Shown: positions 16,435 through 54,711 of the stretch, piece after piece
Layout of the letters: each line of letters opens with the position of its first letter
Position numbering within the stretch: the first letter of the stretch is position 1
Source of the DNA: Pseudomonadales bacterium
GTDB taxonomy: Bacteria > Pseudomonadota > Gammaproteobacteria > Pseudomonadales > UBA7239
DNA: 64,000 nt
Assembly: GCA_041395785.1 (NCBI GenBank)
Contig: JAWKZZ010000008.1
Coordinates: 1,471 to 65,470 of the forward strand
Direction: 5' to 3'
The notes under the pieces: generated by a model
The model's database searches: none
Told to the model about the DNA's origin: nothing
Seen by the model: only the letters and a program-made list of their open reading frames with translations
Program-made: the position numbers and the translations under genes

Positions 16435-17912
16435 AAAATAATTTTCGCGCACAACACTGTTTGATGGTGCAAGGCTGCACTTCCGATGCCGGAAAAAGCA
16501 CTTTGGTGGCGGGTTTGTGTCGCGTGCTAGCGCGACGCGGCGTAAAAGTTGCGCCCTTCAAACCACAAAATATGGCGTTGAACAGCGCCGTCACCGTGGA
16601 TGGCGGCGAGATTGGTCGCGCACAAGCGGTGCAAGCGCAAGCGTGTTTTTTAGAACCGCACAGCGATATGAATCCGATTTTGCTGAAGCCCAACACCGAT
16701 ACCGGCGCACAAGTGATTGTGCACGGCAAAGCACTCAGCAATATGGATGCGCGCCACTATCACCACTACAAAACCGAAGCGATGCAGTTTGTACTGCAAT
16801 CGTTTGAGCGACTGTCTGCGCACTATGCATGTGTAATGGTGGAAGGCGCTGGCAGCCCCGCAGAAATCAATTTGCGCGATCGCGATGTCGCCAATATGGG
16901 CTTTGCCGAAGCGGTGGATTGCCCAGTAATTGTAGTGGCCGATATTGATCGCGGCGGCGTGTTCGCGCATTTGTGCGGCACGCTGGATTTATTGAGCGAT
17001 TCCGAACAACAGCGCGTCGCCGGTTTTGTGATTAACAAATTTCGCGGCGATGTTTCACTGCTACAACCCGGCATTGATTGGCTGGAGCAGCGCACCGGCA
17101 AACCTGTGTTAGCGGTGATGCCTTATTTACACGGCATGCACCTGGAAGCCGAAGACGCGATTGCGTATCAACAGCCAGAAAAAAATAGCGCGCAACGCTT
17201 ACGCGTGATCGTGCCAGTGATGCCGCGCATCAGCAATCACACCGATTTCGATGCGCTGCGTTTACACCCGCAAGTGGATCTCACTTTTGTGCGCGCGGGG
17301 GAAGTCATTCCAGCGGCCGACTTGGTGATATTGCCGGGCAGCAAAAGTGTGCGCAGCGATCTCGCTTTTTTGCGCGCGAACCACTGGGAACCGCATTTGC
17401 AAAAACACCTGCGCTACGGCGGCAAACTGATGGGAATTTGCGGCGGCTTTCAAATGCTGGGCAACAGCATTGCTGATCCGCACGCACTGGAAGGCACAGC
17501 GGGCACGGCGCAAGGTTTTGGTTTTTTGGATTTCGACACCGTGTTAGAACCAGAAAAACAATTGCTGCGCGTACAAGGGCAACTGCAAGCCACCGGCGCG
17601 CGCGTCAGCGGCTATGAAATTCATTGCGGCGTGAGTCGCGGTGCGGCGTTGGAAAATTCGGCACTGGAGCTCGGCGATCATCGCGACGGTGCGCTATCTG
17701 CTGACGGCAACATCCTCGGCAGCTATGTGCACGGCATTTTTGATGAGCAGGAATCGCTGACGAGTTTATTGGCGTGGGCGGGCTTGCGCGATGTAGAAGC
17801 GTTTGATTATCGCGCGCGCCAAGAAGCGGATATCGAGCGACTGGCCGATGCGGTGGAGCAACATTTCAACGCTCAGTGGCTGAATGCATTAACACCCTCG
17901 CCTCGCAGTTAA
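16431..17912 (+). CDS. cobQ: cobyric acid synthase
   Basis: 493 aa. [21 protein letters not shown]-terminus, GATase-1 domain with [13 protein letters not shown] overlap with cobT. Confidence 0.92.
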
Positions 17913-20900: not shown

Positions 20901-21970
20901 GAGTCTTTCAAAACCGCGTTGATATGGACGCTTGTTGCCTCAGGAGCAATGTCATACTGATATGCGGTAACAGCTGAGGAAAAGGCAGGGGAAGGTGAGC
21001 CCTCCGCCAGTGTCAAACTGCTCAACTCGTTATCACCCGGCACAGAAGTCTGCGATCCCCAACTGACAACAGTGCCGTCACCCTGTAATGCCAGCGAGTG
21101 ATCGACACCGGCTGACACCGCGACAACATCCGCAAGCCCAGCAGGAGGAGCCACTTTGCCATCCGCATTGTCACCCCAACCGATAACCGTGCCGTCATTC
21201 TTCAGTGCCAATGCGTGCATATGATTTGCTGAAATGGCCGTGATACTAGACAGACCCGCTACATCCAGAATCCCGTTTCCGTTAAATTCCTTCCCCCACG
21301 CAACAACGGTACTGTTTGACTTTAATGCCAGCGCATACAAATATCCGGCATCAATCGCAACAACATCAGACAAATTCGATGGCTTGAGTGTCGCACCAGC
21401 ACCGTTTGACCCCCAATCGACGACTGTACCGTCGAATTTCAAGGCCATTGAGTAGTAACTGCCCGCGGCCACCTTGGTAACACCAACCTGCGCGTCAACC
21501 GGCACATTCGCTTGTCCATTCCCATTGAGTCCCCAGGCGTAAACCCTGCCAACATTGCCGACCACGCCTGTTTGCGAGACTGCCAAAGTGTGTTTGCCTG
21601 CTGCAGACATGGCGATAACCTTGGTCAGACCTTGAGGGATAACCGTCTCGCCTGCGTCATCGCTTCCCCAGGCAACCAGTGCCCCGTTCGATTTACGCGC
21701 AAGAAAGGTAGAGTCTTTGGCTGAGATCTCTACTACATCAGTCAGCCCTTCCGGGGGCTTGGCCCACGCGGTGACATTATTACCCCACGCGATAACAGTG
21801 CCATCCGATTTCAGGGCAATAGAATTATTTTGGGCTGCTGCAATCTGGACCACTTTTACCGTATCAGCCACGCCATTTTGCGCAAATGGAGTCATTGTTC
21901 CGGCAAAGAGCAACACCGCTGTTATCGCTACTCCAAACTTTCCCAATATTCTTTCAAAAGTGGGCCGCAC
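17909..21970 (-). CDS. large secreted mosaic protein: signal peptide, 7 RCC1-like repeats, cadherin-like beta-sandwich, Ig-like/'WYLH..D.AGN' modules, X2-like domain, thrombospondin type-3 repeats, 7 FG-GAP repeats
   Basis: 1353 aa. RCC1 blades (..[10 protein letters not shown].., [34 protein letters not shown]). [81 protein letters not shown] Ca-loops [80 protein letters not shown] and [16 protein letters not shown]. Confidence 0.85.
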
Positions 21971-24540: not shown

Positions 24541-27267
24541 ATGAACCACGCAGACTGCATTCTGGTTGACGGCTCCTCCCATTTCTTACCGGGTGCCTTC
24601 CACGCCCTGCCGCCGCTGACCACCAGCAAGGGTCAACCCACCGGCGCAGTGAAAGGCGGGGACCATTAAGCTGCGCAGCCTGCGCAAGCAGTATCCGCAC
24701 AGCGCCATCGCCGTGTTCGACCCGAAAGGCGACACTTCGCAACGCGTTGTACGCCGACTACAAAGCCAATCGCCCACCCATGCCCGACGATTTGCGCGCA
24801 GATTGTGCACCGCCGCATCGCCGATTCGCGTGATGGGAATTCCACTGGCTGATCGTCGATGGTGTGGTGCCGATGATGTGATCGACATCGGCTGGCCGTG
24901 CAGGCGCGCAACCAACAACAAGCCGTGCTGATTTCCACCGGCGACAAAGACATGGCGCAGTTGGTGACGAGCATGTCACGCTGGGTCAACACCATGACCA
25001 ACACCGTGCTGGATCGCGTTATGGGTGACGAAAGTATTTGGCACCGGTAAGCCGGAGCAGATTGTCGATTACCTCGCCTTGATGGGTGACAAAGTCGACA
25101 ACATTCCTGGCGTGGATAAGTGCGGCCCCAAGACTGCGGTGAAGTGGCTGCAAGAATACGGCTCGCTAGCAAGCGTGATGGACAACGCCGAAAAAATTGG
25201 CGGCAAAATTGGCGAGAACTTGCGCGCTGCTTTGTCCTTTCTGCCGCTGTCGCAACAACTCGCCACCATCAAAACCGATGTAGAGATGCCCATCAACTGG
25301 CGCGACTTACAAGCGGGCGAAATGGATCGCGCTGCACTGCTCGAATGGTTTACCGAACTGGAAATTCAAAGTCTGGATTGCAGAAGTGAATAACGGCGGC
25401 GATGTGATTGCTGCCGCTACTGCACCAACAACGCAAACCGAAACTGTCCCCGCACAATACGACACCATTACCGACATGGATCACTTGCAACAGTGGATCT
25501 CACGCTTGCAGTCTGCACCGTATTTTGCACTCGACACGGAAACTGGATTCGCTCGATTACATGCGTAAGCCAATATTGTCGGGTTGTCCTTGCAGTCAAA
25601 ACAGGCGAAGCCGCTTATGTACCGTGGCGCACGATTATCTCGGCGCGCCAACACAATTATCACGCGAAGCCGTACCTAAAGCACTCCAACCATTACTGAA
25701 GATACTTCCATTAAAAAAGTGGATGCAGAACGGCAAATACGATATGAATGTGTTTCGTATGCCGGCATTCAATTGCGCGGTGTGGCGTATGACACAATGC
25801 TGGAATCTTAGCGCGTTTTAGATCTGCCGCTACGCGCCACAACATGGATGATCTCGCGAAAAATATTTGGATTACGACACGGTTGCTTTTGAAGATATCG
25901 CCGGCAAAGGTGCGAATCAATTGTCGTTCAATCAAATTGACTTAGAAAAGCAGCGTTTTATGCCGCTGAAGATGCCGATATCACCTTGCGCCTGCATCGA
26001 AAACCCTGTGGCCACAACCGAGCGCCACACCGGCGTTGCAATCAAGCCTTTTGACCACATCGAAATCCCTTGCTTCCTGCATTGTCGCGCATCGAGCGCA
26101 ACGGCGTGCTGGTCGATGTCAAACGCTTACACAAGCACAGCGTAGAACTGGCGAGCGCATGCAAGCACTCACGCAAGAAGCGTTCACACTCGCCGGGCAA
26201 GAATTTAATTTGAGCTCGCCCAAACAACTCGGCGAAATTTTGTACGGAAAATTGAAACCGGTTTGCGCTGAAAAAAACACCGACCGGACAACTGTCTACC
26301 GCCGAACCGGTGTTGGTGCAGAACTCGCACTGGATTACCCGCTGCCGAAAGTGATTATGGAATATCGCGCGTGAGCAAACTGAAATCGACTTACACCGAT
26401 AAATTGCCGCAGATGGCAGGTGACCCTGCAACTGGTCGCGTTCACACTTCGTATCACCAAGCGATTGCGTCTACAGGGCGTTTGCTTCCTTCAGATCCCA
26501 ATCTCCAAACATTCATCTTTCGCACGGAAGAAGGTCGTCGCGTGCGACTGGCGTTTATCGCGCCCAAAAATTACAAAATGCTCGCCGCGGATTACTCACA
26601 AAATTGAATTGCGCATCATGGCGCACTTATCTGCGGATGACGGTTTGCGCAACGCGTTTGTACAGCGTTTTTCGACATTCACCGCGCCACCGCTGCCGAA
26701 GTGTTTGATACCGCATTAGAAAAGTGACGACCGAACAATGCCGCAGCGCGAAAGCCATCAACTTTGGTTTGATTTACGGTATGTCAGCCTTTGGTTTAGC
26801 GAAACAATTGCACATCGGTCGCCATCAAGCACAGGAATACATTGATTTATATTTTTCGCGCTACCCCGGCGTACATTGCGTTACGGAGGAAACACGCCAA
26901 CAAGCCGCCGAACAGGGTTTTGTTGAAAACGCTGTTTGGTCGCCGTTTGTATCTGCCCGATATCCGCTCCAAAACGCCGGCTTGCGCCAAGCGGCTGAGC
27001 GCACGGCGATCAACGCGCCGATGCAGGGCACTGCAGCCGATATCATCGCGCGCGATGATCCGCGTCTCGGAATGGCTGCAACACACGAAAACCGATGCGC
27101 GCATGATCATGCAAGTACACGACGAGCTGGTGTTCGAGGTCGCTGAACGCGATGTCGAGACCGTGCGCGAGACAGTCTGTAGCCTGATGTCTGCCGCAGC
27201 CGAACTGCATGTACCACTGGTCGTCGATGCCGAAGGCATCGGCGACAACTGGGACGAAGCCCACTGA
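24541..27267 (+). pseudogene. polA: DNA polymerase I, multiply frameshifted as written
   Basis: Pol I peptides occur in all three + frames. Examples are MNHADCILVDGSS..ALPPLTTSKGQPTGAV (24541-), [110 protein letters not shown]|[29 protein letters not shown] and QVHDELVFEV...NWDEAH. The total span of 2727 nt fits about 909 aa. There are at least a dozen frame switches. Confidence 0.9.
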
Positions 27268-27281
27268 ATACAGCCAACCTC

Positions 27282-28173
27282 ATGAAACATTCACTGTTAT
27301 TGCAAACTTTGACAAGAGCCCCGCATGGACACCACGAACCCGATACTGAAACTTCGGCCGCACCCGCCATCATCGCTTTTGCCGGCATCAGCGTGCTGAC
27401 CTCGTCGTGGTACACCGTCGATGAAGGCGAGCGCGCCGTGATCCTTATGCAATGGTGCCGCCATCGGCACTGCCGAACCCGGCCTGCACTTCAAGATACC
27501 GGTCATCGACCGAGCTGCATAATTTCAGCAGACATTGAATGAGTTTGACCAGATGCCCGCCTACTCGAAAGACCAAGCCGGCCGAGATCAAGCTCTCGCC
27601 TACCCCACGCTTCCAGCGTGCAGTCCATCTATTCCACCTACGGCTGGTGGAAGGTCTCGTCGACCGCATCCTGCGCCCGCGTGTGAACGATTCCACCAAG
27701 GAAGTGTTCACGAAGTTCACCGCCGTGTCGGTGATCCAGGATCGCGCCAAGTTCGGCACGGATGTTCACCAGGCTGTCATCAAGATCGTCAAAGCAATGA
27801 CATGGTGACGAATCCATCCAGATCGAGAACATCGACTTCTCCAGCGCCTACGAACAGAGCATCGAGCAGCGCATGCTGGCCGAAGTCGAAGTGCAGAAAG
27901 TTCGCCAGAACTGGAGAAGGAAAAGTCTCCGCCGACATCACCCGCACCCGCGCACAGGCCGAAGCTGATGCCCGGTTGCATTGGCACAGGCCACGGCCGA
28001 CGCCAAGGCGATTGAACTGCGCGCCAGGCTGAAGCGGCCGCCATCCGCGCCAAGGCTGATGCGCTGCGCGAGCCCGAACCTCGTAACCCTGATCCAGGCC
28101 GAGCGCTGTGGACGGCAAACTGCCGGCGACGATGGTGCCGAAGCTCGGCGGAAAGCTGTTTATCGTGGGGTGA
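27282..28173 (+). pseudogene. SPFH/band-7 (prohibitin-like) family protein, frameshifted as written
   Basis: Fragments lie in several frames: SWYTVDEGERAVIL, NGAAIGTAEPGLHFKIPVID, LEGLVDRILRPRVNDSTKEVFTKFTAVSVIQDRAKFG, IQIENIDFSSAYEQSIEQRMLAEVEVQKVRQN, and ends ..KLFIVG* (TGA 28171-28173). Confidence 0.7.
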
Positions 28174-28185
28174 AATAACTTCACC

Positions 28186-28325
28186 ACCCGGCGCTGCGCC
28201 ATCCTGAATCCGTTCCTTACCCGGCGCTGCGCCACCCTCTCCCGAATCAGAGAGGGTTGAGATGCTGCCTGCTGTTTTTTCCTTCTCCCGCTGGCGGAGA
28301 AGGTGGCCGAAGGCCGGATGAGGGT
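28186..28325. repeat. cluster of REP-like palindromic elements
   Basis: Direct repeat ACCCGGCGCTGCGCCA at 28186-28201 and 28219-28234. Hairpins ccctctc/gagaggg (28235-28256), ccttctcc/ggagaagg (28281-28303) and ggcc-gaa-ggcc (28305-28315). Confidence 0.7.
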
Positions 28326-28620
28326 TATCTCGCCAGCGCATTCCGTATCTTGCCAAACATTTCCTCATCGTGATGCCACAACCACATCAGCGAGTTGTAT
28401 TCTTTTCGCGCCAGCAACTCCGCGCTGTATTCAAATCCATAGTCCACTTTTCCGTCAGCCGCTCTGGAAAGACAGCACCAGCAAATCGCCGTCTGCTGGC
28501 TGCAGTGCCACATCGAAAGCATCAACCTCCCGCAAACGCGCCATAGAATGTGTTCGCGATTAATCGCATCTACAGCAGGATCCAGATAATACGGCGGCTG
28601 GATGGTGCCTGATCATTTCA
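28325..28620 (-). pseudogene. small ORF of unknown function, apparently frame-broken
   Basis: The minus strand reads ..TIQPPYYLDPAVDAINREHILWRV / LREVDAFDVALQPADGDLLVLSFQSG / DGKVDYGFEYSAELLARKEYNSLMWLWHHDEEMFGKIRNALAR* across 2-3 frames. I recognise no family. Confidence 0.2.
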
Positions 28621-28734
28621 TTCTTGTCTTGCGCCTGACGATAAAAATCCAGTAGTGGGCACAATCTTTCCACATCAGCCGTCTTGCAATGGACACAGTT
28701 TGAATTTGTCTGATACTACGCACATGGCACACCC

Positions 28735-31700
28735 TCACATCCCGCAGAATTTCCCATCCTCCACCCTTACCTTCCCACCACCACCAGCATTTCCAGTATC
28801 GATGGCAGGCGTTTTTTCCAAGCGCCCTTGCCGGTGAAGTGCGCGGCGATGGCATCAATATCCAATGCAATTTTGCTGGCGGCGAGTATATGTCTGCCAC
28901 GGCCTTCGCTTGCGCAATACCTTCTTCGGCCACGGTTGTTTTTCACAGCAGCAACGATTGGCTCACTCAAGTACTTCCGGCTCCACATCCAGCGGTTTGC
29001 ACGGCAATGGTTTCAGCAGCGGCTTGGGCCTTGTGTGTTTTGTGCGCTCTTGTTTTGATATTCCGGCCGCAACCAACGCACGATGCCGCGCTGTTCTTCT
29101 TCAACGCGCTCGGCATTTAATGCAACAAGGCGCCCAATAAAACCCCATCCAATTCGCGCTTGATGTCGATGCGCAATGACCCTCCGCTGCTGACGTGGCA
29201 CCTCCCCTATTGCATAGGGGGAGGATTTATCTCCTTGCGAAGGAGTGGCGCGCAGCGCCGAGGGGGGTCACGCCATCTTCACCACCTGCATCATCTCCTG
29301 CAAGCATCTATTCCAGCCGTAAGCGTCGAGCACGGCGAGGTCGAGTTCATCGTGCAATTGCTTGAGCACGGATACCAGCCCCTGTTCGTGGATGGTTTTT
29401 TCCTTCGCTGTCAGCGCGTCGCCGCTTTTGAGCTTTTCCAGCACGCTGTACATGCCGGTGAGCGTCAGCTCCGGGTGCTGCGCCTGCTGTTTCTTGCGAT
29501 GTGCATCCAGCTGCCTTCGCCAATGCGCGAATTCGGATTTTCTGTTCTTCCGTGGCAGCTGGAAACGGGAAAGGCTCGAAGCAACGGTATTGTTGTAAAC
29601 GGGATCATTACCAACACCCAGCCTTGCGCCAGCAGCCAATGCCCATACAACATGAGATGCACTAGACAAAACCCCTAGAACATAACCATCGTCATGCGCA
29701 ACTACGCGTATCTTTTGGTCTGGCAAATAGTCAGATTCGATAAAGACAAATGTTCTGTGTTTGGCGGTTTCTGTTGTTCCTATATATCTTGAGCAATTTT
29801 GTATAGCCTCGCGCAAATCTGGACGCGCTCTACCAAATAACCACCAATTATCCCTGAAAAGCTTATCTCTGCTGGAATCTCTTTCCGGCTTTACCCGGTC
29901 AAAAATTCTTTGAAACTCTTTGGGATAGAGTTCCATTGCCTGTTTATCAGAAAGACCGAAGAAATCCACAACCCGACAATCTCTTGGCTTTTGCGTCAAA
30001 TCCCTGCCATTCATGTACTTCCTGATCACTGGCGAATTTACACCATGCAGAGGATCTTCAGGCTCCACAACAAAGCCACCACCAACAAGGATGACACCCA
30101 TGAATGAAAGACCAGTATTGGAACGTAATGCCGGCGCTGACGCAACGTTGGCTCCAACCCGCAAGTCTGAATGAATGAGGCCAGAAGCCGCTCTCAGCTT
30201 CACATCAACTTCAGAATCTTCGACCTCTTTCTTCTTCAACCTTCTTGAGCAAACCGGATTTTTTACCTGCTTCACCAACCGTCATCGCAATACCGCACAG
30301 CAGCACCATCAGCGTTATCAACCCACGGGTGATCAGGAATTGCGAACACCAGCGACAGCGGTGCCTTGGCTGAAAGGTGTGTATCAACAATTTTTCTGTT
30401 GAACGCCATCGTCAAGCTGTTCGTAGTAACTGTGCCCGAACCGCAGCATTTTTTTCAAGCGCACACTTTCAGCCGCATGGTGCCACCAATACATAAATTC
30501 AAATCGGCTGTATCCGGCACATCGGGCCACGCGGCGCGCAACGCTTCCACATAACCATCACCCAGTGCCACACGCATGCGCTTGTTACCAATAAACGGTG
30601 GATTCCCCACCACAAAGTCCGCCTGCGGCCACTCGGCCTTGCGCGGATTAACGTACTGATCGATGGTGATGCGCGCAGTTTCATCCGGCACATCTTCCCC
30701 CGTCACCGGGATGCTTCTTGAACGCCTTGCCATCCCAGCGCGACACCGGCACGCCTTTCTCATCCTGCAACAACTCGATGCCGTCATACGCCAGCACGGC
30801 ATCGCGGTTTTCAATGTTGTGGAAATCGCGCAACACCGGCTGCGGCGGCTGCGCCGAACCGTTGGTCTTGAAATGCCATTGCAGATAGCCGATCCACAAC
30901 ACCATCTCGGCAATGCTCGCCGCGCGTGGATTTAACTTCAATACCAAGAAACTGGTGCGGATCAACCGTTAAGCCTTCCGTCTCCAAACTCATTGATACA
31001 TTCAAATCGTGCAACTGGTTCAACACTTCGCCTTCCAGCCGTTTCAAGTGTTCCAGCGTTACATACAGAAAGTTTCCCGAACCGCAAGCAGGATCCAGCA
31101 CGCGCACATTGCACAAACGATGTTGAAATTCACGCAACACATTTTCGGCTTCTTTGTTTCTTTTTCTTCACTCGCCAGCATCAGTGCCGCCGTCTGCGCG
31201 GTGTTCTGTCCTTCGCGCAGCGGTTCAATTACGGTTGGCAACACTAAACGCTCGACACATGCGCGCGGCGTGTAATGCGCACTGAGCGCGTGACGCTCAG
31301 TCGGGTCGAGTGCGTTCCAGTAGCGTGCCAAAAATCGCTGGTTCTACTTGGCTCCAATCTTTTCTGCCCGCTTCAATTCAACAGCGCAATTTGATCGCGG
31401 TGGATCCAACGGCAACACATCTGTTGTTTGAACAACTTGCCATTAAAGCGCAACACATCGGCGCGCAGAGAAACGGTAAAACCGCCGCCATCCATCGTCT
31501 TCCTGCCAAATCTGGTTACCAGCGGCATAAATTGCCAGTAGTGCGTTGGCGAGTGATTCCAATAATTCAGTGAACGAACGCTTCGGCAGCAGGCCAACAT
31601 CTTCAGCAAAAAGTGGGAACAAGCAGCGCGTGAGAAATCCAGCCACGCGTTCGGCACCAGTTCGCGCTTTCCAATGCTTTCGCGGATACCGGCCAGTTGC

Positions 31701-32304
31701 GCGGCAATTTCGCGCGTGACTTTGGCAGATTGGCGCGTGGGATCCAACGAGAGCGGATCACACCAAAGAGTTCTCAAACGCTCGCGAATTCTTTTTCATC
31801 GCGCAGATCATCGAGCTTGATGCGGTGCGAGCGTGGATCAGGAAACGGTGCAGTAGTGGTTCGCGCCGCTGCGAGAGAACCCGGCATAAACATCAATGAG
31901 GTTACTAACATCCACTCACCAACAAAAATGGTGGGCGACCTTCACCGGGCTGGCAAAGGGCGATTGCTCGGCTTGTTTGTGCGCTCTTTAACAAATGCCA
32001 CACCGAAACCCTGCGTGTGCTCGCCCCAAGTTTTGAGTTTCTTGTTCTCCAGTACGAAAGCACCACGGCGGTAATAATCGATTCCGCCCTCCGCCGTTGA
32101 GCCATATCGGCATGATTAAAAATCACGCGCCGCTCAAACACATAGGCGTTGTCGCGGGTATCTTCGCTTGCGCAGGATCAGGCACCGGCACGGGTGAGCA
32201 GTTCGGTATAGGCTCGTGGCAAAACTCCGCGCTGGCAAGTTCCGTTGCCTAGCACCGCGCCAGCGTGATAAAAGATTCCACAGGAGAAATATCTGAAGTT
32301 CCAT
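28735..32304 (-). pseudogene. MmeI-family type IIL/IIG restriction-modification enzyme (fused PD-ExK nuclease, N6-adenine methyltransferase and TRD), multiply frameshifted and interrupted
   Basis: Fragments in at least 9 frame segments. N-terminus ..SRWRGA.., DTRDNAYVFERRVIFNHADGSTAEGGIDYYRRGAFVLENKK (D-X9-E-X-K, 32041-32082). PFPDPRSHRIKLDDL. MTase motif [13 protein letters not shown] (~31060-31100). Motif [11 protein letters not shown] (30593-30604). PDHPWV-type segment. TRD ORF 29268-30278. C-terminal tail VRWLRPEYQ...KGAWKKRLPSILEMLVVVGR(V)RVEDGKFCGM* (TGA at 28735-28737). Confidence 0.8.
29199..29266. repeat. REP-like palindromic element inside the R-M gene
   Basis: Hairpins cctcccc-tattgcata-ggggagg (29201-29223) and ctcctt-gcg-aaggag (29231-29245), plus GGCGCGCAGCGCCG. 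That last stretch is the reverse complement of the CGGCGCTGCGC core shared with the 28186-28325 elements. Confidence 0.6.
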
Positions 32305-32397
32305 GTTTTTGTGATCCATAGAAGTCGATAAGAACAACCTGCCGCAAGCGGCACAGCGTGATCCTTGATTTGCGCCCTTGCCCATCCGCCACAACTA

Positions 32398-32413
32398 CTG
32401 TATAAATAATCAC
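32398..32413 (+). promoter_or_regulatory. candidate LexA (SOS) box upstream of recN
   Basis: TACTGTATAAATAATCACTG reads CTG-N10-CAC (one mismatch to CTG-N10-CAG) with an AT-rich centre. It lies 33 nt upstream of the recN GTG. recN is a classic SOS gene. Confidence 0.4.
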
Positions 32414-36850: not shown

Positions 36851-37003
36851 TGCATCACCGTGAGACCTACTTCACATTTAAACGACCCATATCAGCCCAG
36901 CCAATCTACCGTCCTTTACCGTTAGGGCGTTATAATCGGCCGCCCGTTCAGGCAGGTACTGCCTTTACCGTTCCATTTGATCTCACGGATGCCACTGCAG
37001 TCG

Positions 37004-37918
37004 ATGTACCAGCTTCGCTTCAAGGATACCAACCGCCCACTGTTCCCGATCACTGCCAATGTCTGCACATTGGGGAGAGGGCAGGGCAATACCGTTGTGC
37101 TCAATACCAGCACGGTAGACGAGTCGCATGCGCGCATTGTGCAGCACGACGGCAAATTATTTCTGCAAGACAACAAAAGTCAGCGCGGCTGTTTCGTCAA
37201 TGGCAAGAAGGTGAAATACAAAGACTTGCACAACGGCGACATGATCAGCATTGGCAATGTGCATTTTGAAATTGTGGAATCCGAAGACGCCGATCTGACT
37301 TCTACTCGCGTATCCACGCCCAACCATGCCCCAGTTGCGCGCTCTGCCGTGCATACCTCCGCCACTTGGCGTTTGGTTTCCGATAGCAGCTGGCTCGCTG
37401 GCAAAGTGTTTGAGTTGCAAGGCGATGCCACCTTATTAGGGCGCGGCAAAGATTGCGACATTGCCATCCCCGGCAACCACCTCTCGCGCAAACATGCCCA
37501 GATTTTTCACCACGGCGATTACCTCACCGTCATGGATCTGGATTCCGCCAATGGCAGTTATGTCAACGAAGTGCGCGTCCAAGGTGAGCAAGTCGTACGC
37601 CCCGGCGACCGGCTGCGTTTTGATGTTTACAGCTTCCGCGTACAAGGCCCAACCAATAACGGCAGCGCCGAAACAGAAACATCCACACGCAGCAACGGCA
37701 AAAAAGTTATCGATCTGCACAGCACGCTGCAGAACATCGAAGCGCTGAAAGCGCAAGAGTATCAACCCAAAGAATGGGTCACCAAACCCACTTCACACGG
37801 CAATCGCTATCACGAAGTTCCCATTCGCAAAGGGCATCACAGCCCCCTGCTCTGGGTTTCCGTGCTACTGGGCACAGGCGTTCTTGGCGTCCTCGGCTAT
37901 ATTGTTTTTAATATCTAA
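37004..37918 (+). CDS. tandem FHA-domain protein with C-terminal TM anchor
   Basis: Two FHA cores: TLGRGQGNTVVL..VDESHARI..LQDNKSQRGCFVNGKKV, and LLGRGKDCDIAIPGNHLSRKHAQI..VMDLDSANGSYVNEVRV. C-terminal hydrophobic LLWVSVLLGTGVLGVLGYIVF. The start is uncertain (36977 TTG, 36989 or 37004 ATG). Confidence 0.8.
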   Translation: MYQLRFKDTNRPLFPITANVCTLGRGQGNTVVLNTSTVDESHARIVQHDGKLFLQDNKSQRGCFVNGKKVKYKDLHNGDMISIGNVHFEIVESEDADLTSTRVSTPNHAPVARSAVHTSATWRLVSDSSWLAGKVFELQGDATLLGRGKDCDIAIPGNHLSRKHAQIFHHGDYLTVMDLDSANGSYVNEVRVQGEQVVRPGDRLRFDVYSFRVQGPTNNGSAETETSTRSNGKKVIDLHSTLQNIEALKAQEYQPKEWVTKPTSHGNRYHEVPIRKGHHSPLLWVSVLLGTGVLGVLGYIVFNI

Positions 37919-37934
37919 ACGCGCGTCATACTCC

Positions 37935-37969
37935 AAATAAAAAAGCCGGAACGATTACTCGCTCCGGCT
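37935..37969 (-). terminator. rho-independent terminator (strong on minus strand)
   Basis: Stem 37944-37950 / 37963-37969 (agccgga / tccggct) with a 12-nt loop. The minus strand continues TTTTTATTT (37943-37935). The plus strand continues only tgtgtt. Confidence 0.75.
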
Positions 37970-38138
37970 TTGTGTTCAGACTTTCATCTGCCCTTCCCGT
38001 TACCGATCCTTGGCAGTGTCTCTGTACTATTGTTGTGCTGTTATTATTGTTATTCAGCTTTTCTTCTTGTTATCGGCATAAGGCATTCGTTGTTTTTGTT
38101 ACCACTGCCGCTTCTTATTGTGATTTGTTGTTGTTGTA
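37935..38138 (-). ncRNA. candidate sigma-54-dependent, (ARN)n/AANAANAA-rich sRNA (CrcZ-like Hfq/Crc sponge architecture)
   Basis: It lies between a near-consensus -24/-12 promoter and a terminator. It holds 4-5 A-rich clusters (ACAACAACAACAAAUCACAAUAAGAAG, AACAAAAACAACGAA, AUAACAAGAAGAAAAG, AAUAACAAUAAUAACAGCACAACAAUAG). A long-range stem pairs GGCAGUG (38109-38103) with CACUGCC (38018-38012). There is no SD-preceded ORF over 10 codons. Confidence 0.6.
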
Positions 38139-38149
38139 CTTTTACTATC

Positions 38150-38164
38150 GCAAGCCGCGTGCCA
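38150..38164 (-). promoter_or_regulatory. sigma-54 (-24/-12) promoter
   Basis: The minus strand reads TTGGCACGCGGCTTGCG, which is TGGCAC-N5-TTGC with exact GG/GC spacing. Predicted TSS ~38138. Confidence 0.7.
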
Positions 38165-38225
38165 ACTTTTTATTCGCTTAAAAATCAAACAATTACTCAT
38201 TTAGCCTTCACCTAAATTGCCTATA

Positions 38226-38244
38226 GGTAACAAAAATTGTTACC
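38226..38244. promoter_or_regulatory. palindromic upstream activating sequence (candidate enhancer-binding-protein site)
   Basis: GGTAACAAAAATTGTTACC is a perfect 8-bp-arm inverted repeat (GTAACA-N5-TGTTAC) 63-81 nt upstream of the -24 element. Further GTTAC pentamers lie at 38251-38255 and 38261-38265. Confidence 0.5.
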
Positions 38245-38297
38245 GCGCGCGTTACGCTGCGTTACCGTTCGACTCATATCGCCACCAAAGCAATGGC

Positions 38298-38312: not shown

Positions 38313-38373
38313 CGCACAAGTTTCTTTGTCTCGCTAACAATCTGTGGAACAATGCAGCAAATCGGAGGTATTT

Positions 38374-38877
38374 GTGGTAGACGCAGAAGGTTTTCGTCCC
38401 AATGTCGGCATCATGCTGGCCAACGCGCACGGAGAGTTGCTGTGGGCTCGCCGTGTCGGCGGTATGGATGCATGGCAATTTCCGCAGGGCGGCATCCAAG
38501 CACAAGAAGACCCAGAAGCCGCGCTGTTTCGCGAGCTGCGCGAAGAAGTAGGGCTAATACCGAACGATGTGCGCATCATGGGCTGCACGCGCGGTTGGTT
38601 GCGCTATCGCCTGCCACCTCGCCTTATCCGTCGCCATCAAAATCCACTCTGCATCGGCCAAAAACAGAAGTGGTTTTTTCTACAAATGCTCGGCGATGAA
38701 GCCAGCATCCATTTTGATAATAGCGATGAACCTCCCGAGTTTGACCACTGGCGCTGGGTCAGCTATTGGCATCCGCTGACACAAGTGGTGTCGTTCAAAC
38801 GCGAGGTCTACCGCAGCGCCCTCAAGGAACTGGCACCGTATCACTTGGCGTTGTCCAACCGTCTATCCCATGCCTAA
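38374..38877 (+). CDS. rppH: RNA pyrophosphohydrolase
   Basis: [15 protein letters not shown].. Nudix box [26 protein letters not shown] 38374 is preceded by GGAGG (38364-38368). The track start at 38344 is less likely. Confidence 0.9.
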
Positions 38878-38889
38878 GGATAGATGCCG

Positions 38890-41179
38890 ATGCTCAATGC
38901 ACTGAGAAAACTGGTACAGGAAGTCAACGCAGCCACCCACTTGGAGGAGGCCTTGTCATTGATTGTGCGTCGCGTGCGCACCGAGATGGCAACACAGGTC
39001 TGCTCCATTTATCTGCTCGACACCGACAGCCAGCGCTACATCCTGATGGCTACCGAAGGTTTGAATCAGGATGCCAGGGCAAAGTCAGTTTGGCAGTTGG
39101 CGAAGGTTTGGTTGGCTTGGCGGCTAAACGCGAAGAGCCGATCAACTTGGATGATGCTGAATCACATCCACAATACCGCTATTTTCCAGAAACGGGCGAA
39201 GAGCGCTTCGCTCCTTTCTCGGCACGCCGATCATCCACCACGGCAAAGTGACCGGCGTATTGGTCGTACAGCAAATCGAAGAACGACACTTTGACGAATC
39301 GGAGGAATCTTTCCTCGTCACACTCTCGGCGCAGTTGGCGGCCATCATCGCGCACGCTGAGGCGACGCGCTCGCTCGACCCACCCAGCCGCCTGCACGGC
39401 TATAAATCCCCAGAAGCCAATTTCAAAGGGATATCCGCCGTACAAGGCGTGGCACTGGGTGAGGTGGTGGTGGTCTATCCGCCCGCCGACCTCAATGGTA
39501 TCCCCATCGAGAAAACGGACGACATTGATGCTGAACTGATACTGCTCAATGCCGCACTGCAACGCGTGCGCCAGGATATGCAGCAATTGTCGAGCAGCTG
39601 CAAAACCGCTTGCGCGAGGAAGAGCGCGCTGTTTGCCGTCTATCTCGGCATGCTGACTGACAGTGCCTTAGGCGGCGAAATCAGTGCACTTATTCGCACT
39701 GACGCCCTACAAGCACGATCTGCACTGGCCAGCGTCATCCGTGAACACATACGCACTTTTGAAGACATGGAAGACGCTTACTTACGCGAACGCGCCACCG
39801 ATGTGCGCGACCTAGGTTTGCGCGTGTTGGCAGCCATGAACCTACAAAACCAGGACAACAAACGCACCGTATATCCGGCAAGAACCATTTTAGTAGCCGA
39901 AGAACTCAGCGCCTCCATGCTCGGTGAAGTGCCCGAAGGGCAGCTTGTCGGCTTGATCTCAGTGCGCGGCTCCAGCGCCTCACACGCTGCTATCCTCGCG
40001 CGCGCCATGGGCATCCCCACCGTGGTCGGTGTCACCAATCTGCCTTTCCAGCAACTGAATGGCCGCCACATTGTGCTCGACGGCTATCGTGGCAAGGTGT
40101 ACACCAACCCCTCCAAATTATTGCGCCGTCACTTTGAAAGTATTTGGCGCGAAGAACAGCAACTCTCACGCGACTACCACGCGCTGACACCACTGCCTTG
40201 CGAAACCAAAGATGGACAACGACTTCCTCTGTGGGCCAACACCGGCATGATGACCGATGTGGTGCGCTCACTGGACCGCGGCGCAGAAGGCGTCGGTCTC
40301 TACCGCACCGAAGTCGCTTTTTTGTTGCGCGACCGCTTCCCCAGTGAAGAAGAACAGCGCAGCTTGTATCGCGAACAGTTAAGCGCCTTTGCCCCCAACC
40401 CCGTCACCATGCGCACACTGGACATCGGCGGCGACAAATCCCTACCCTACTTTCCCATCCGCGAAGACAACCCGTTTCTCGGCTGGCGCGGGATTCGCGT
40501 ATCACTCGATCACCCTGAGATTTTCTTGGTGCAAGTGCGCGCGATGTTGAAAGCCAGTGAAGGCGTCAACAATCTGCGCATCATGTTGCCAATGATCACC
40601 AGCACCGCAGAATTGGATCAAGCTTTGCAATTAATTTATCGCGCGCGGCAAGAACTGCTGGAAGAAGGGCACGACATTCATCTGCCGCAAATCGGCGCGA
40701 TGATCGAAGTACCGGCTGCACTTTACCAAGTGCGCGAATTGGCACGCCGCACAGATTTCCTCTCAGTAGGCACTAACGATTTAACGCAATATTTGCTAGC
40801 GGTTGATCGCAATAACGCGCGCGTAGCAGGTCTTTACAGCCATTTGCACCCCGCCGTTTTGCAGGCGCTAGCTCATATTGCCAACGACGCGCACGCCGAA
40901 GGAAAAACGGTCAGCGTCTGCGGTGAAATGGCGGGCGATCCCTGCGCCGCCGTGTTGTTGATGGCGATGGGTTACGATGCGCTGTCCATGAATGCCAACA
41001 ATTTGCCGAAAATAAAATCTGTCATTCGCAATTTGCACCTGACAGATGCAAAAAAATTATTGTCAGAAGTATTGGCGATGAACGATGTGCGCTCCATCAG
41101 CAAACACGCCAACAGCACACTAGCGCGCTGGGGGGTTAGCAAACGCCTCTTGCACGCCGAGACAGAAGAAGACGCCTAA
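38890..41179 (+). CDS. ptsP: phosphoenolpyruvate-protein phosphotransferase PtsP (EI-Ntr), two single-nt frameshifts in the GAF domain as written
   Basis: The GAF N-terminus MLNALRKLVQEVN..YLLDTDSQRYILMATEGLNQDA switches frame at ~39075-39079 to GKVSLAVGEGLVGLAAKREEPINLDDAESHPQYRYFPETGEERFA. It switches again at ~39209-39216 to LGTPIIHHGKVTGVLVVQQ... The EI domain is then intact (GSSASHAAILARAMGIPTVVG, FLSVGTNDLTQY) through 41179. Each switch is a -1 shift. Confidence 0.9.
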
Positions 41180-50130: not shown

Positions 50131-50185
50131 GGCTATCCCCCACCTTGTTTTTGTTAAACAGCTGTATGTGAAACTTCCCTAATGG

Positions 50186-51412: not shown

Positions 51413-53259
<1,847 letters not shown>

Positions 53260-53267
<8 letters not shown>

Positions 53268-54711
53268 GTTTACCACCGCTTTTTTCTAAAGCGCCCGCCA
53301 AAATAGCCGCCAGAGCACCAACATTGCCCGCTCCTTGCGTCACAACAATGTCACCTGCTTGCAGCAGCGGCGCCAAAATTTCTGGCACGGCATCAATGGA
53401 TTCCACAAACACCGGATCGACATGCCCGCGCTGACGAATACTGCGCGCCAATGCGCGGCTATCTGCCCCTGCAATAAAAGCTTCGCCTGCGGAATACACA
53501 TCCAATAACAACAATACATCCACTTTAGACAGCACTTGCACAAAATCATCGTAGAGATCGCGCGTGCGCGTATAGCGATGCGGTTGATACACCATTACCA
53601 AACGACGCTCCGGCCAACCTTTGCGCACCGCGTGAATCACCGATTCCACTTCGCGCGGATGATGACCGTAATCATCCACCAACATCGCCGTACCTGTGTT
53701 AACCGGATACTCGCCGTAAACTTGAAAGCGTCGTCCAACACCTTGAAATTTTTCCAACGCGCGCACGATGACTTCATCGGCAATCCCTTCATCCGTTGCC
53801 ACAGCAATCGCCGCTGCCGCATTTTGCACATTGTGGATGCCGGGCAAATTGATCGTCGCTGTAATCGGTGGATGCTCAGGGCGCAACACGGTAAACCGAC
53901 TCTGCATTTTTTCTTGCGCCACATCCACGATGCGAAAATCCGCCGTTTCACTCATACCATAAGTCAGCAGTGGACGGCCAACTTCTGGCAAAATCTCGCA
54001 CAGCGGTTTGTCATCCACACAAACAACAGCCACACCATAAAACGGCAAATTGTGTAAAAACTGCACATAGGTTTGTTGCAACTTTTTAAAATCACCGCCA
54101 TAGGTTTCCATGTGGTCGGCATCGATATTGGTCACCACCGACACCATCGGCTGCAAATGCAAAAACGAAGCGTCACTTTCATCCGCTTCTGCTACTAAAT
54201 AACGGCTAGCGCCCAAGCGCGCGTTGCTGCCAGAACTGTTGAGCAAACCGCCAATCACATAGGTGGGGTCGCGCCCCGCTTCTGCCAACACAGACGCAAT
54301 CAAACTGGTGGTGGTGGTTTTTCCATGTGCGCCTGCCACAGCAATTCCGTGACGATAGCGCATGATTTCCGCCAACATTTCTGCACGGCGCACCACAGGG
54401 ATACGGCGCTCGCGCGCAGCCAATAATTCTGGATTTTTTGGATCAATTGCCGTCGACACCACCACCACATCTACAGCGACAACATTATCTGCTGCATGAC
54501 CGATGACTACTTCCGCGCCCAAGTTGCGCAAACGCGACACCACCGGTCCTTCGCGCAAATCAGAGCCAGAAATGAGATAGCCCTGATTTAACAACACTTC
54601 CGCAATACCACACATACCGGCACCGCCAATGCCGATGAAATGAATGCGGCGAATGCGGCGCATATCGGGCACAAAAAAGTTAGCGTCTGTCATGCGTTGT
54701 GGATCAGTCAC
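53260..54711 (-). CDS. murC: UDP-N-acetylmuramate--L-alanine ligase
   Basis: 483 aa. [27 protein letters not shown]. Confidence 0.95.

What the first reader, a model, noticed from the sequence alone, without database searches (positions are those of the whole stretch)
37935..38138. Unannotated sigma-54-driven, AANAANAA-rich sRNA: a CrcZ-like Hfq/Crc sponge at a non-canonical locus
Seen:
- The minus strand carries TTGGCACGCGGCTTGCG (38150-38166), matching TGGCAC-N5-TTGC with exact spacing.
- From ~12 nt downstream, a ~200-nt A/C-rich transcript would contain 4-5 clusters fitting AANAANAA/(ARN)n: ACAACAACAACAAAUCACAAUAAGAAG, AACAAAAACAACGAA, AUAACAAGAAGAAAAG and AAUAACAAUAAUAACAGCACAACAAUAG.
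- GGCAGUG (38109-38103) can pair with CACUGCC (38018-38012) around the central clusters.
- The RNA ends in a 7-bp hairpin followed by UUUUUAUUU, on the minus strand only.
- The longest ATG ORFs are about 10 codons without an SD. The 81-aa and 69-aa plus-strand track ORFs are Leu/Cys/Phe-rich translations of the T-rich complement.

Established: Pseudomonas CrcZ/CrcY/CrcX are RpoN/CbrB-dependent sRNAs that sequester Hfq (with Crc) through AANAANAA motifs, and (ARN)n tracts bind the Hfq distal face.

Inference: this is a functional analogue controlling catabolite repression or an Hfq regulon. It is about half the size of CrcZ and lies between an FHA gene and rppH-ptsP rather than cbrB-pcnB, so standard annotation would miss it.
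Basis: partly seen in the sequence, partly recalled or inferred. Interest (0 to 1): 0.8.

Follow-up and report, generated by a model that had tools for sequence, protein, structure and literature searches.

The report
Compact CrcZ-like small RNA outside Pseudomonas
An unannotated ~200-base RNA gene, with a nitrogen-type (sigma-54) promoter and rows of A-rich motifs, is conserved in an uncultured marine-type bacterial lineage and most likely soaks up the RNA chaperone Hfq, as CrcZ does in Pseudomonas, where this circuit was thought to be unique.

Summary
On the minus strand, a sigma-54 -24/-12 element (38164-38150) precedes an A-rich ~199-nt transcript (about 38137-37939) that ends in a strong intrinsic terminator.

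Ten distinct homologues were recovered. All come from uncultured 'Pseudomonadales bacterium' MAGs or metagenomes, and all lie between a convergent FHA gene and divergent rppH-ptsP.

Phylogenetic footprinting shows a fixed promoter architecture:
- two GTAAC(A/G) hexamers exactly 16 bp apart, about 80 and 102 bp upstream of TGGCA; these are the published CbrB subsites with the published R1-R2 spacing;
- an exact IHF consensus in 7 of 10 loci;
- TGGCA-N6-TTGC.

The RNA body keeps 3-7 unpaired (AAN)n tracts, but their number and the total length (144-234 nt) vary. A GNRA hairpin, a local 5' hairpin and the terminator covary.

No Rfam family matches; CrcZ scores 14.8 bits against a threshold of 95. 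The lineage is not Pseudomonadaceae: its RecN is only 51-53% identical to that of Oceanicoccus, Dasania and Porticoccus.

Best reading: a compact CrcZ-type Hfq sponge driven by a CbrB-like activator. Hfq binding, and the presence of cbrB or crc in this lineage, could not be tested. A universally conserved GGAUC...GGAAGG module remains unexplained.

The parts
38238..38265 (-). Upstream activator sequence. It holds GTAACG (38265-38260, R1), an extra GTAACG (38255-38250) and GTAACA (38243-38238, R2). R1 and R2 are separated by 16 bp.
   Evidence: R1 and R2 sit at -101/-102 and -79/-80 from TGGCA in 9 of 10 homologous loci. The pattern is unique in the window (0 of 100 shuffles) and occurs once per homologous locus. 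The hexamers and the N16 spacing equal the published CbrB R1-N15-19-R2 arrangement (PMC8871633, PMC6296734).
38227..38232 (-). Forward-type subsite TGTTAC, 5 bp downstream of R2. With R2 it forms the palindrome GGTAACAATTTTTGTTACC.
   Evidence: It is present in the window and L006, as CGTTAC in L012, and degenerate in L007 and L001 (TGTCAC). Three other relatives (L001, L017, L019) carry a T/CGTTAC at -132 instead.
38183..38195 (+). IHF consensus AATCAAACAATTA (WATCAANNNNTTR), lying between the activator sites and the -24 element.
   Evidence: There is an exact consensus at the same position (-31/-32) in 7 of 10 loci. Shuffles give 0.14 loci on average, with a maximum of 3.
38150..38164 (-). 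Sigma-54 -24/-12 promoter TGGCACgcggcTTGC.
   Evidence: TGGCA and TTGC are invariant in all 10 homologues, with identical spacing.
37939..38137 (-). Predicted sRNA of about 199 nt. The 5' end (+/- 2 nt) is inferred from the promoter geometry, and the 3' end from the U-run.
   Evidence: homologues are 144-234 nt, and 7 of the 10 begin ACAA 12 nt after TTGC; the nhmmer profile hits one copy per locus; there is no conserved ORF.
38111..38135 (-). A-rich tracts 1a and 1b: AACAACAACAAA and AAUAAGAAG, at the 5' end of the RNA.
   Evidence: They are predicted to be unpaired.
38074..38110 (-). Local 5' hairpin, CGGCA-GUG[...]UGC-N4-UGCCG. It displays A-rich tract 2 (AACAAAAACAAC, 38100-38089) in its loop.
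   Evidence: Helix 1 has a compensatory C-G to U-A change in L012 and wobble changes in L008. Helix 2 is 83% paired.
38026..38071 (-). A-rich tracts 3-5: AACAAGAAGAAAAGC, AAUAACAAUAAUAACAGC and AACAAUAGU. Tract 4 sits in the loop of a GCUG/CAGC stem.
   Evidence: The number of tracts in this segment varies among relatives, from 0 to 5 extra tracts.
37988..38011 (-). Universally conserved 3' module, AAGGAUCG-N5-GGGAAGGGCAG. Its function is unexplained.
   Evidence: It is present in all 10 variants with a 6-8 nt gap. GGAAGG is predicted mostly unpaired (P 0.67-1.0).
37977..37990 (-). GNRA-tetraloop hairpin, CAGAU-GAAA-GUCUG.
   Evidence: It is the RNAalifold consensus helix. Pair 224-246 is A-U in 5 sequences, C-G in 2, U-A in 1 and U-G in 1.
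37939..37971 (-). Rho-independent terminator: a 13-pair stem, a GUAA loop and a U6 tail.
   Evidence: 13 pairs, 8 with changes on both sides, 94.6% of cells paired.

Best explanation
This is a stand-alone, non-coding sRNA gene.

Transcription is by sigma-54 RNA polymerase. It is activated from two (in some relatives three) GTAACA/TGTTAC subsites about 105-130 bp upstream of the start by an NtrC-family enhancer-binding protein with CbrB-like DNA specificity. An IHF-induced bend assists activation.

The ~200-nt product carries four to six unpaired (A-A-N)n tracts of 3-6 triplets. Some are displayed in hairpin loops. It ends in a Hfq-type terminator with a U-tail.

Each tract can fill the A-R-N pockets of the distal face of one Hfq hexamer. 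When the activator is on, presumably on poor carbon sources or C/N imbalance, the RNA therefore titrates Hfq (with Crc, if the lineage has it) away from mRNAs that carry A-rich motifs at their ribosome-binding sites. This relieves translational repression.

Shown: the sequence elements, their conservation and fixed geometry, the non-coding nature, the RNA helices, and the restriction of the locus to one uncultured lineage.

Inferred: transcription itself, RpoN and activator dependence, the identity of the activator, Hfq binding, and the physiological signal.
For: Promoter:
- TGGCA-N6-TTGC is invariant in 10 homologues.
- GTAAC[AG]-N16-GTAAC[AG] sits at a fixed distance in 9 of 10 loci, with diverged spacers around it.
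- The pattern is unique in the window, with 0 of 100 shuffles matching, and occurs once per locus.
- The hexamers and the R1-R2 spacing match the CbrB consensus TGTTAC-N12-14-GTAACA-N15-19-GTAACA, and IHF assists PcrcZ.
- An exact IHF consensus is present in 7 of 10 loci, against 0.14 expected.
- In the paper library, CbrB is the only sigma-54 activator linked to GTAACA.

RNA:
- AANAANAA density is 60-fold above the window mean.
- The tracts are predicted unpaired, with P 0.8-0.9 against about 0.4 elsewhere.
- Tract number varies from 3 to 7, as expected for a sponge.
- The RNA starts ACAACAACAA, like the Rfam CrcZ consensus ACAAcAAcAAuAAcAAGCA.
- The terminator and hairpins covary.
- There is no conserved ORF.

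Precedent: CrcZ is 407 nt with six A-rich stretches and binds the Hfq distal face, one hexamer per stretch.
Against: - There are no expression data.
- The Rfam CrcZ model does not recognise it (14.8 and 12.7 bits against 95), and none of the relatives is recognised either.
- The F1 subsite is absent, or lies at N24 rather than N12-14.
- The gene is not next to a cbrB-like gene. No enhancer-binding protein or hfq gene is in the window or in any locus held.
- CbrAB is described as unique to Pseudomonadaceae, and this lineage is not in that family.
- Strict A-R-N periodicity exceeds composition-matched shuffles in only 5 of 10 variants. L017 and L001 keep only about 3 short motifs.
- The most conserved RNA segment (GGAUC...GGAAGG) is not required by the sponge model.
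Confidence: 0.6

Rival explanations
1. A base-pairing, Hfq-dependent (class II-like) sRNA. In this reading the A-rich tracts only anchor it to the Hfq distal face. The conserved 3' module (GGAUC...GGAAGG), or an A-rich segment, acts as the seed that pairs with specific mRNAs. It would be comparable to sigma-54/NtrC-dependent NrsZ (own knowledge).
For: - The GGAUC-N6-8-GGAAGG element is conserved in all 10 variants and is predicted accessible.
- The terminator and U-tail are typical of Hfq-binding sRNAs.
- Some relatives have few A-rich tracts.
Against: - No complementary site stands out in the 64 kb window.
- An SD-like GGAAGG seed would need CCUUCC targets, which are unusual at translation-initiation regions.
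- Four to seven tracts are more than an anchor needs.
- The number of tracts changes freely while the tracts themselves persist, which is the pattern of a titrating RNA.
Confidence: 0.2
2. A sponge or decoy for a different RNA-binding protein. In particular, a CsrA/RsmA dimer could be bound through the two GGA motifs 12 nt apart, either alone or in addition to Hfq. The dual reading resembles McaS of E. coli (own knowledge).
For: - AAGGAUC resembles the CsrA SELEX core ARGGAU (own knowledge).
- The two GGA motifs keep a fixed spacing in all variants and are mostly unpaired. In L020 and L017 one motif sits in a hairpin loop.
Against: - There are only 2 accessible GGA motifs per RNA (3-5 GGA in total), against many in CsrB/Rsm RNAs.
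- The repeated and expanded element is AAN, not GGA.
- No Rfam Csr/Rsm family matches.
Confidence: 0.1
3. Not an RNA gene. The conserved block would be DNA-level regulatory sequence for the divergent rppH-ptsP operon or the convergent FHA gene, and the sigma-54 match and terminator would be incidental.
For: - The sigma-54 consensus alone is expected 0.6 times per window.
- The activator sites lie only about 110-140 bp upstream of the likely rppH start.
Against: - Compensatory changes in three helices on the minus-strand transcript.
- The terminator is strand-specific.
- The promoter-to-ACAA distance is fixed in 7 of the 10 loci.
- The conserved elements extend 200 bp beyond any plausible rppH promoter, up to the 3' end of the FHA gene.
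Confidence: 0.04

Closest known systems
CrcZ / CrcY / CrcX of Pseudomonas and Azotobacter (Rfam RF01675 for CrcZ)
   Same: - A sigma-54 promoter.
- Upstream GTAACA/TGTTAC subsites with R1-R2 spacing in the CbrB range.
- An IHF site between the subsites and the promoter.
- An RNA that begins ACAACAACAA.
- Several unpaired AAnAAnAA / (A-R-N)n tracts.
- An intrinsic terminator.
- No coding potential.

   Different: - About half the length: 199 nt here (144-234 in relatives) against 407 nt.
- Not recognised by the Rfam model (14.8 bits against 95).
- Located between an FHA gene and rppH-ptsP, not downstream of cbrB.
- The F1 subsite is missing or one helical turn further away.
- It has an extra universally conserved GGAUC...GGAAGG module and a GNRA hairpin.
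- The host lineage is outside Pseudomonadaceae.
GlmY of Enterobacteriaceae (own knowledge)
   Same: It is a sigma-54-dependent sRNA whose promoter combines enhancer-binding-protein sites (GlrR/QseF) with IHF. It acts by sequestering a protein (RapZ) rather than by base pairing.
   Different: It has a different activator motif (TGTC-N10-GACA), no A-rich repeats and a different protein partner. There is no sequence or Rfam match.
NrsZ of Pseudomonas aeruginosa (own knowledge)
   Same: It is a sigma-54-dependent sRNA activated by an NtrC-family regulator, with a modular repeated structure.
   Different: NrsZ is NtrC-dependent, is processed into repeated stem-loop modules, and acts by base pairing on rhlA. 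No NtrC-type sites (GCACC...GGTGC) are present here.
CsrB / RsmY / RsmZ protein-sponge RNAs, and the dual-function McaS (own knowledge)
   Same: The sponge logic is shared: a short binding motif repeated a variable number of times and displayed in loops or linkers. Two GGA motifs are present, as in McaS.
   Different: The repeated motif here is AAN, not GGA. The promoter is sigma-54 rather than GacA-dependent sigma-70. There is no Rfam match.

Membership tests
CrcZ (Rfam RF01675) | Scores at or above the family's gathering threshold (95 bits) with the Rfam covariance model. | tested here: not met
   There are two partial hits of 14.8 and 12.7 bits (E 0.14 and 0.57), to A-rich stretches only. 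No hit with E<=1 was found in nine related loci.
CrcZ/CrcY/CrcX functional class | A sigma-54 (-24 GG / -12 GC) promoter directly upstream of the RNA. | tested here: met
   TGGCACgcggcTTGC lies at 38164-38150. TGGCA and TTGC are invariant in 10 homologues.
CrcZ/CrcY/CrcX functional class | A CbrB binding site of the form TGTTAC-N12-14-GTAACA-N15-19-GTAACA upstream of the promoter. | tested here: inconclusive
   The R1-N16-R2 arrangement with GTAAC[AG] hexamers is met in 9 of 10 loci. F1 is absent in the window at the canonical position; a TGTTAC lies downstream of R2 instead. In L001, L017 and L019, F1 lies at N24. The consensus is taken from PMC8871633.
CrcZ/CrcY/CrcX functional class | An IHF site between the activator sites and the promoter. 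| tested here: met
   There is an exact WATCAANNNNTTR at -31/-32 in 7 of 10 loci, including the window.
CrcZ/CrcY/CrcX functional class | Several (about 5-6) A-rich AAnAAnAA stretches in unpaired regions. | tested here: met
   There are 10 overlapping AANAANAA matches in 4-6 tracts. P(unpaired) is 0.85 in the tracts and 0.40 elsewhere.
CrcZ | The gene lies immediately downstream of cbrB, as in all Pseudomonas genomes analysed (PMC5113210). | tested here: not met
   The neighbours are an FHA gene and rppH-ptsP. No GAFTGA-type activator gene is in the window or in any locus held.
CrcZ | A length of about 370-410 nt. | tested here: not met
   The window RNA is 199 nt, and relatives are 144-234 nt.
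CrcZ/CrcY/CrcX functional class | Binds the distal face of Hfq (with Crc) and relieves translational repression. | not testable with these tools
   This needs EMSA, co-IP or genetics.
CrcZ/CrcY/CrcX functional class | The host genome encodes CbrA/CbrB, Crc, Hfq and RpoN. | not testable with these tools
CsrB/Rsm sponge RNAs | Many GGA motifs in loops or single-stranded regions. | tested here: not met
   There are 3 GGA in the window RNA, of which 2 are accessible. There is no Rfam hit.
Protein-coding gene (the plus-strand 81-aa and 69-aa ORFs, or a minus-strand mini-ORF) | The reading frame is conserved in relatives. | tested here: not met
   The antisense ORFs are 16-99 aa, in different frames and of low complexity. 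The AUG of the MKV mini-ORF is CUG, ACG or UUG in relatives.

The most novel reading that the evidence does not exclude
The CbrB-CrcZ type of carbon-catabolite circuit is not a Pseudomonadaceae invention. It also exists in an uncultured lineage of the former Cellvibrionales, in a miniaturised form. Its sRNA additionally carries a universally conserved 25-nt module with two GGA motifs that binds a second global regulator (CsrA/RsmA or another protein). One sigma-54-controlled RNA would then couple the Hfq and Csr post-transcriptional networks.
Probability: 0.12. Interest if true: 0.8.

Novelty: new variant of a known kind. Interest (0 to 1): 0.6.

Why it matters
Reviews describe CbrAB and its CrcZ-type RNAs as exclusive to Pseudomonas and Azotobacter. 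This finding places a conserved RNA with the same promoter logic (sigma-54, GTAACA subsites, IHF) and the same A-rich sponge design in an uncultured lineage. The nearest cultured relatives of that lineage are Oceanicoccus, Dasania and Porticoccus.

If confirmed, three things follow:
- The phylogenetic range of Hfq-titration-based catabolite control would be wider than thought.
- There would be a natural minimal version (about 150-230 nt, 3-7 tracts) for dissecting how many A-rich tracts a sponge needs.
- An unrecognised CbrB-like regulator would be implied in these bacteria.

It also defines an RNA family that is absent from Rfam 15.

Tried and rejected
- **Rfam.** I searched at the gathering threshold on the window, at E<=10 on the region, and at E<=1 on nine relatives. 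The only hits were sub-threshold A-rich or terminator-driven ones to CrcZ, SdsR and AgvB.
It forms in the window, but position 6 is a C.A mismatch in the four closest relatives, and there is no covariation. Rejected in favour of a local hairpin.
- **The alternative helix CUGCC/GGCAG.** It competes with the GNRA hairpin. Its apparent compensation in L020 rests on non-homologous alignment. Left open.
- **Coding potential.** The antisense ORFs and the SD-like GGAAGG plus AUG-AAA-GUC-UGA mini-ORF are not conserved.
- **Base-pairing targets** for the 3' module within the window: nothing stands out.
- **Second copies or paralogues** in the window and all loci, searched with an nhmmer profile: none.
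- **Synteny in more distant relatives.**
  - L002 and L011, whose FHA proteins are 60-62% identical, have other neighbours and no sRNA beside the FHA gene.
  - The same holds for Cellvibrio japonicus (39% identical).
- **Enhancer-binding-protein or hfq genes** in the window and all loci: none.
- **Literature** on CrcZ-like RNAs outside Pseudomonas: none in the library.
- **Metagenome DNA-pattern scan** for the 3' module: it found only members of the same clade, at the same locus.
Full report
**1. What is in the sequence**

Reading the minus strand of 38400-37700 gives the following elements in order.
- A cluster of GTAAC(A/G)/TGTTAC hexamers at 38265-38227.
- An A/T-rich stretch.
- TGGCACgcggcTTGC at 38164-38150, the only exact TGGCAC-N5-TTGC in the window.
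- Starting 12 nt after TTGC, an A-rich sequence beginning ACAACAACAACAAA.
- A 13-pair hairpin with a GUAA loop and a U-run at 37971-37939, which the terminator scan finds on the minus strand only.

The sigma-54 match on its own is not improbable: 0.61 are expected per window. The A-rich cluster is the extreme outlier of the window.
- It has 10-11 AANAANAA matches per 200 nt, against a mean of 0.17 and a next-best of 4.
- The RNA has 10 matches, against 1.05 +/- 1.17 in composition-matched shuffles of itself.

**2. Context and host**

The element lies in the 425-bp gap between an FHA-domain gene (36977-37918, +, convergent) and rppH (NUDIX) followed by ptsP (+, divergent). The rest of the window is housekeeping chromosome:
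- the ftsH, folP, glmM and tpiA genes;
- the recN and hslO genes;
- the radA and ppa genes;
- the fba and pgk genes;
- the dcw cluster.

RecN of the window is 100% identical to NCBI protein MEZ5494750.1, annotated 'MAG: Pseudomonadales bacterium', from a 150-kb contig. Related MAG proteins form a clade down to about 61% identity. The nearest cultured organisms (Oceanicoccus, Dasania, Motiliproteus, Porticoccus) are only 51-53% identical, and no Pseudomonas sequence appears among the best 120 hits. The host is therefore an uncultured family-level lineage near the former Cellvibrionales, not a member of the Pseudomonadaceae.

**3. Relatives**

I used the FHA protein as an anchor and ran one metagenome scan with a DNA pattern from the RNA's 3' part. 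This recovered ten distinct versions of the element.
- They are the window, L001, L006 (=L014), L007, L008 (=L009, L010, L015), L012 (=L013), L016, L017, L019 and L020.
- In every case the order is FHA gene, sRNA on the opposite strand, then rppH-ptsP.
- FHA-protein identity to the window ranges from 95% down to 65%.
- More distant FHA homologues have other neighbours and no such element beside them. These are L002 and L011 at about 60-62% identity, and Cellvibrio japonicus at 39%.
- An nhmmer profile of the ten sequences finds exactly one copy per locus and no second copy in the window.

**4. Promoter architecture (phylogenetic footprint)**

When the ten upstream regions are anchored on TGGCA, the conserved positions form islands in otherwise diverged sequence.
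- **-24/-12 element.** TGGCA and TTGC are invariant.
- **IHF site.** An exact IHF consensus WATCAANNNNTTR sits at -31/-32 in 7 of 10 loci. Shuffles give 0.14 loci on average, with a maximum of 3.
- **Activator subsites.** Two GTAAC(A/G) hexamers lie at -79/-80 and -101/-102 in 9 of 10 loci, so they are always 16 bp apart. L020 has GTAGCG at the distal site.
- **Uniqueness.** GTAACR-N16-GTAACR occurs once in the 64-kb window (0 of 100 shuffles). It occurs once in each homologous locus, always at this promoter.
- **Forward subsite.** Three loci (L001, L017, L019) add a T/CGTTAC at -132. Three of the closest relatives (window, L006, L012) carry a T/CGTTAC 5 bp downstream of the proximal site instead.

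The published CbrB site is TGTTAC-N12-14-GTAACA-N15-19-GTAACA. In P. putida, IHF assists activation, and R2 is the most important subsite at PcrcZ (PMC8871633, PMC6296734). The hexamers and the R1-R2 spacing are therefore the same. The F1 position differs, being 24 bp away (roughly one helical turn further) or absent. In the paper library, CbrB is the only sigma-54 activator associated with GTAACA.

The activator's identity remains an inference. No GAFTGA-type gene lies in the window or in any locus I hold.

**5. The RNA**

Predicted lengths are 144-234 nt. Seven of the ten variants begin ACAA at the same distance from the promoter.

Shared features:
- Three to seven (A-R-N)n>=3-4 tracts. The window has six: 38135-38124, 38119-38111, 38100-38089, 38071-38057, 38054-38037 and 38034-38026.
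- The tracts are predicted unpaired, with P 0.8-0.9 against 0.35-0.49 elsewhere.
- Several tracts are displayed in the loops of short G+C-rich stems whose sequences differ between lineages. Examples are CGGCA/UGCCG, CCCCC/GGGGG, GACGU/GCGUC and CGGCG/CGCCG.
- The middle of the RNA gains and loses whole tracts between close relatives.

One caveat applies. Strict triplet register exceeds composition-matched shuffles in only five of the ten variants. The universal trait is extreme A-richness (34-45% A over the whole RNA; 39-51% once the terminator is excluded) with at least three AAnAAnA-type motifs.

**6. Structure**

RNAalifold predicts two consensus helices: the terminator, and a hairpin CAGAU-GAAA-GUCUG with a GNRA loop. 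Nine of the 18 predicted pairs show compensatory changes.

I added a local 5' hairpin to this structure. It is CGGCA-GYG[loop with AACAAAAACAAC]YGC-N-UGCCG, and it shows a C-G to U-A change in L012. For the combined structure:
- 87% of cells are paired;
- the covariation score is 0.393, against 0.228 in shuffles, with 0 of 500 shuffles reaching it;
- every slid control falls below 48% paired.

Its U-A pair is a C.A mismatch in the four closest relatives. I reject it as a conserved feature.

**7. An unexplained module**

All ten variants keep (A/U/G)GGAUC(G/A)-N6-8-(G/A)GGAAGG(G/A)(C/U)AG just upstream of the GNRA hairpin. In the window this is 38011-37988.
- GGAAGG is predicted mostly unpaired.
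- The helices around it differ between lineages, so it is the primary sequence that is conserved.
- The sponge model does not require this module.
- It could be a CsrA/RsmA dimer site (two GGA 12 nt apart, with AAGGAUC close to the SELEX core; own knowledge), a Shine-Dalgarno mimic, a contact for another protein, or a stability determinant.
- I found no complementary target in the window.
- It is not a conserved mini-ORF start: the AUG is CUG, ACG or UUG elsewhere.

**8. Not coding, and not a known family**

The plus-strand 81-aa and 69-aa ORFs are low-complexity translations of the T-rich complement. In relatives they are replaced by ORFs of 16-99 aa in other frames.

Rfam 15 has no match at gathering thresholds in the window. 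At E<=10, the region gives two CrcZ fragments of 14.8 and 12.7 bits (threshold 95), and terminator-driven SdsR and AgvB hits. Nine related loci give nothing relevant at E<=1. A literature search found no CrcZ-like RNA described outside Pseudomonas.

**9. Interpretation**

The anatomy parallels CrcZ point by point: a sigma-54 promoter, CbrB-type subsites, IHF, a 5' end of ACAACAACAA, and multiple unpaired A-rich tracts. In P. aeruginosa each such tract binds one Hfq hexamer through the distal face; CrcZ is 407 nt with six stretches (PMC4063720).

The most likely function is therefore a compact Hfq-titrating RNA made when a CbrB-like activator is phosphorylated (confidence 0.6). It is not a member of the CrcZ family as Rfam defines it, for these reasons:
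- it is half the size;
- it sits at a different locus, whereas all Pseudomonas crcZ genes follow cbrB (PMC5113210);
- it carries an extra 3' module;
- it occurs in a lineage where CbrAB has not been described.

Whether it shares ancestry with CrcZ or is convergent cannot be settled from such low-complexity sequence. The shared activator motif favours a common regulatory origin.

Rivals:
- a base-pairing class II-like sRNA (0.2);
- a sponge for another protein such as CsrA, alone or in addition to Hfq (0.1);
- no RNA at all (0.04).

**10. Limits**

There are no expression data and no whole genome. The 5' end is inferred to within +/- 2 nt.

Noticed in passing
window 38884-41179 (+), indel near 39208: ptsP is split into two overlapping frames (136 aa and 643 aa) by a 1-nt deletion relative to L006 and L007. 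Relatives encode an intact 761-764-aa GAF-PtsP. This is either an assembly error or a pseudogene in this MAG.
   Followed up: partly
window 52554-53276 (-): The ddl ORF is only 240 aa and matches positions 3-216 of a 305-position D-Ala-D-Ala ligase profile. It may be another frameshift or truncation, which hints at assembly errors in this contig.
   Followed up: no
window ~50143-50157 (-), just upstream of the ftsZ start at 50130: The ftsZ leader reads UUUAACAAAAACAAGGUGGGGGAUAGCCAUG. It carries an (A-R-N)4 tract abutting the Shine-Dalgarno sequence, so ftsZ is a candidate Hfq distal-face target. This is the second-densest AANAANAA spot in the window.
   Followed up: no
window 38318-38376 (+): A block, TTGTCT...CTGTGGAACAATG, is conserved in all relatives upstream of rppH. 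It is probably the rppH promoter or 5' UTR. The real rppH start is probably the GTG at 38374, after GGAGG, which gives the 167 aa called in relatives rather than the 177-aa ORF that starts at 38344.
   Followed up: partly
window ~24600-32400: This stretch holds many short ORFs with no Pfam or NCBIfam hits. They include fragments with an NPPF methyltransferase-like motif (30455-30913) and a 336-aa ORF (29268-30278). It looks like a degraded restriction-modification or mobile island between a DUF1631 gene and recN.
   Followed up: no
window 38097-38102 and 37999-38003 (-): GTAACA/GTAAC hexamers, the same as the activator subsites, also occur inside the transcribed region: in the 5' hairpin loop and within the 3' module. 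They are conserved only in the closest relatives and are probably coincidental.
   Followed up: partly
L019 3418-3603 (-): This variant has a tandem duplication (GCAGUAAAAGAC / GGUAGUAAAAGAC) in place of the GNRA hairpin. L020 lacks the hairpin altogether. The hairpin is therefore not universal, whereas the GGAUC...GGAAGG module is.
   Followed up: partly
L002 4800-5500; L011 3913-6912; L018 4326-4951: More distant homologues of the FHA protein (about 60-62% identity, and 39% in Cellvibrio japonicus) are followed by unrelated genes: an MobA-like gene, a 1376-aa protein and ppa respectively. The FHA-sRNA-rppH arrangement is thus confined to a subclade. I could not check whether those genomes carry the RNA elsewhere.
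   Followed up: partly
window 17909-21970 (-): A 1353-aa protein combines RCC1-like, cadherin-like, CBM_X2 and FG-GAP repeats. It is probably a large secreted or adhesion protein.
   Followed up: no
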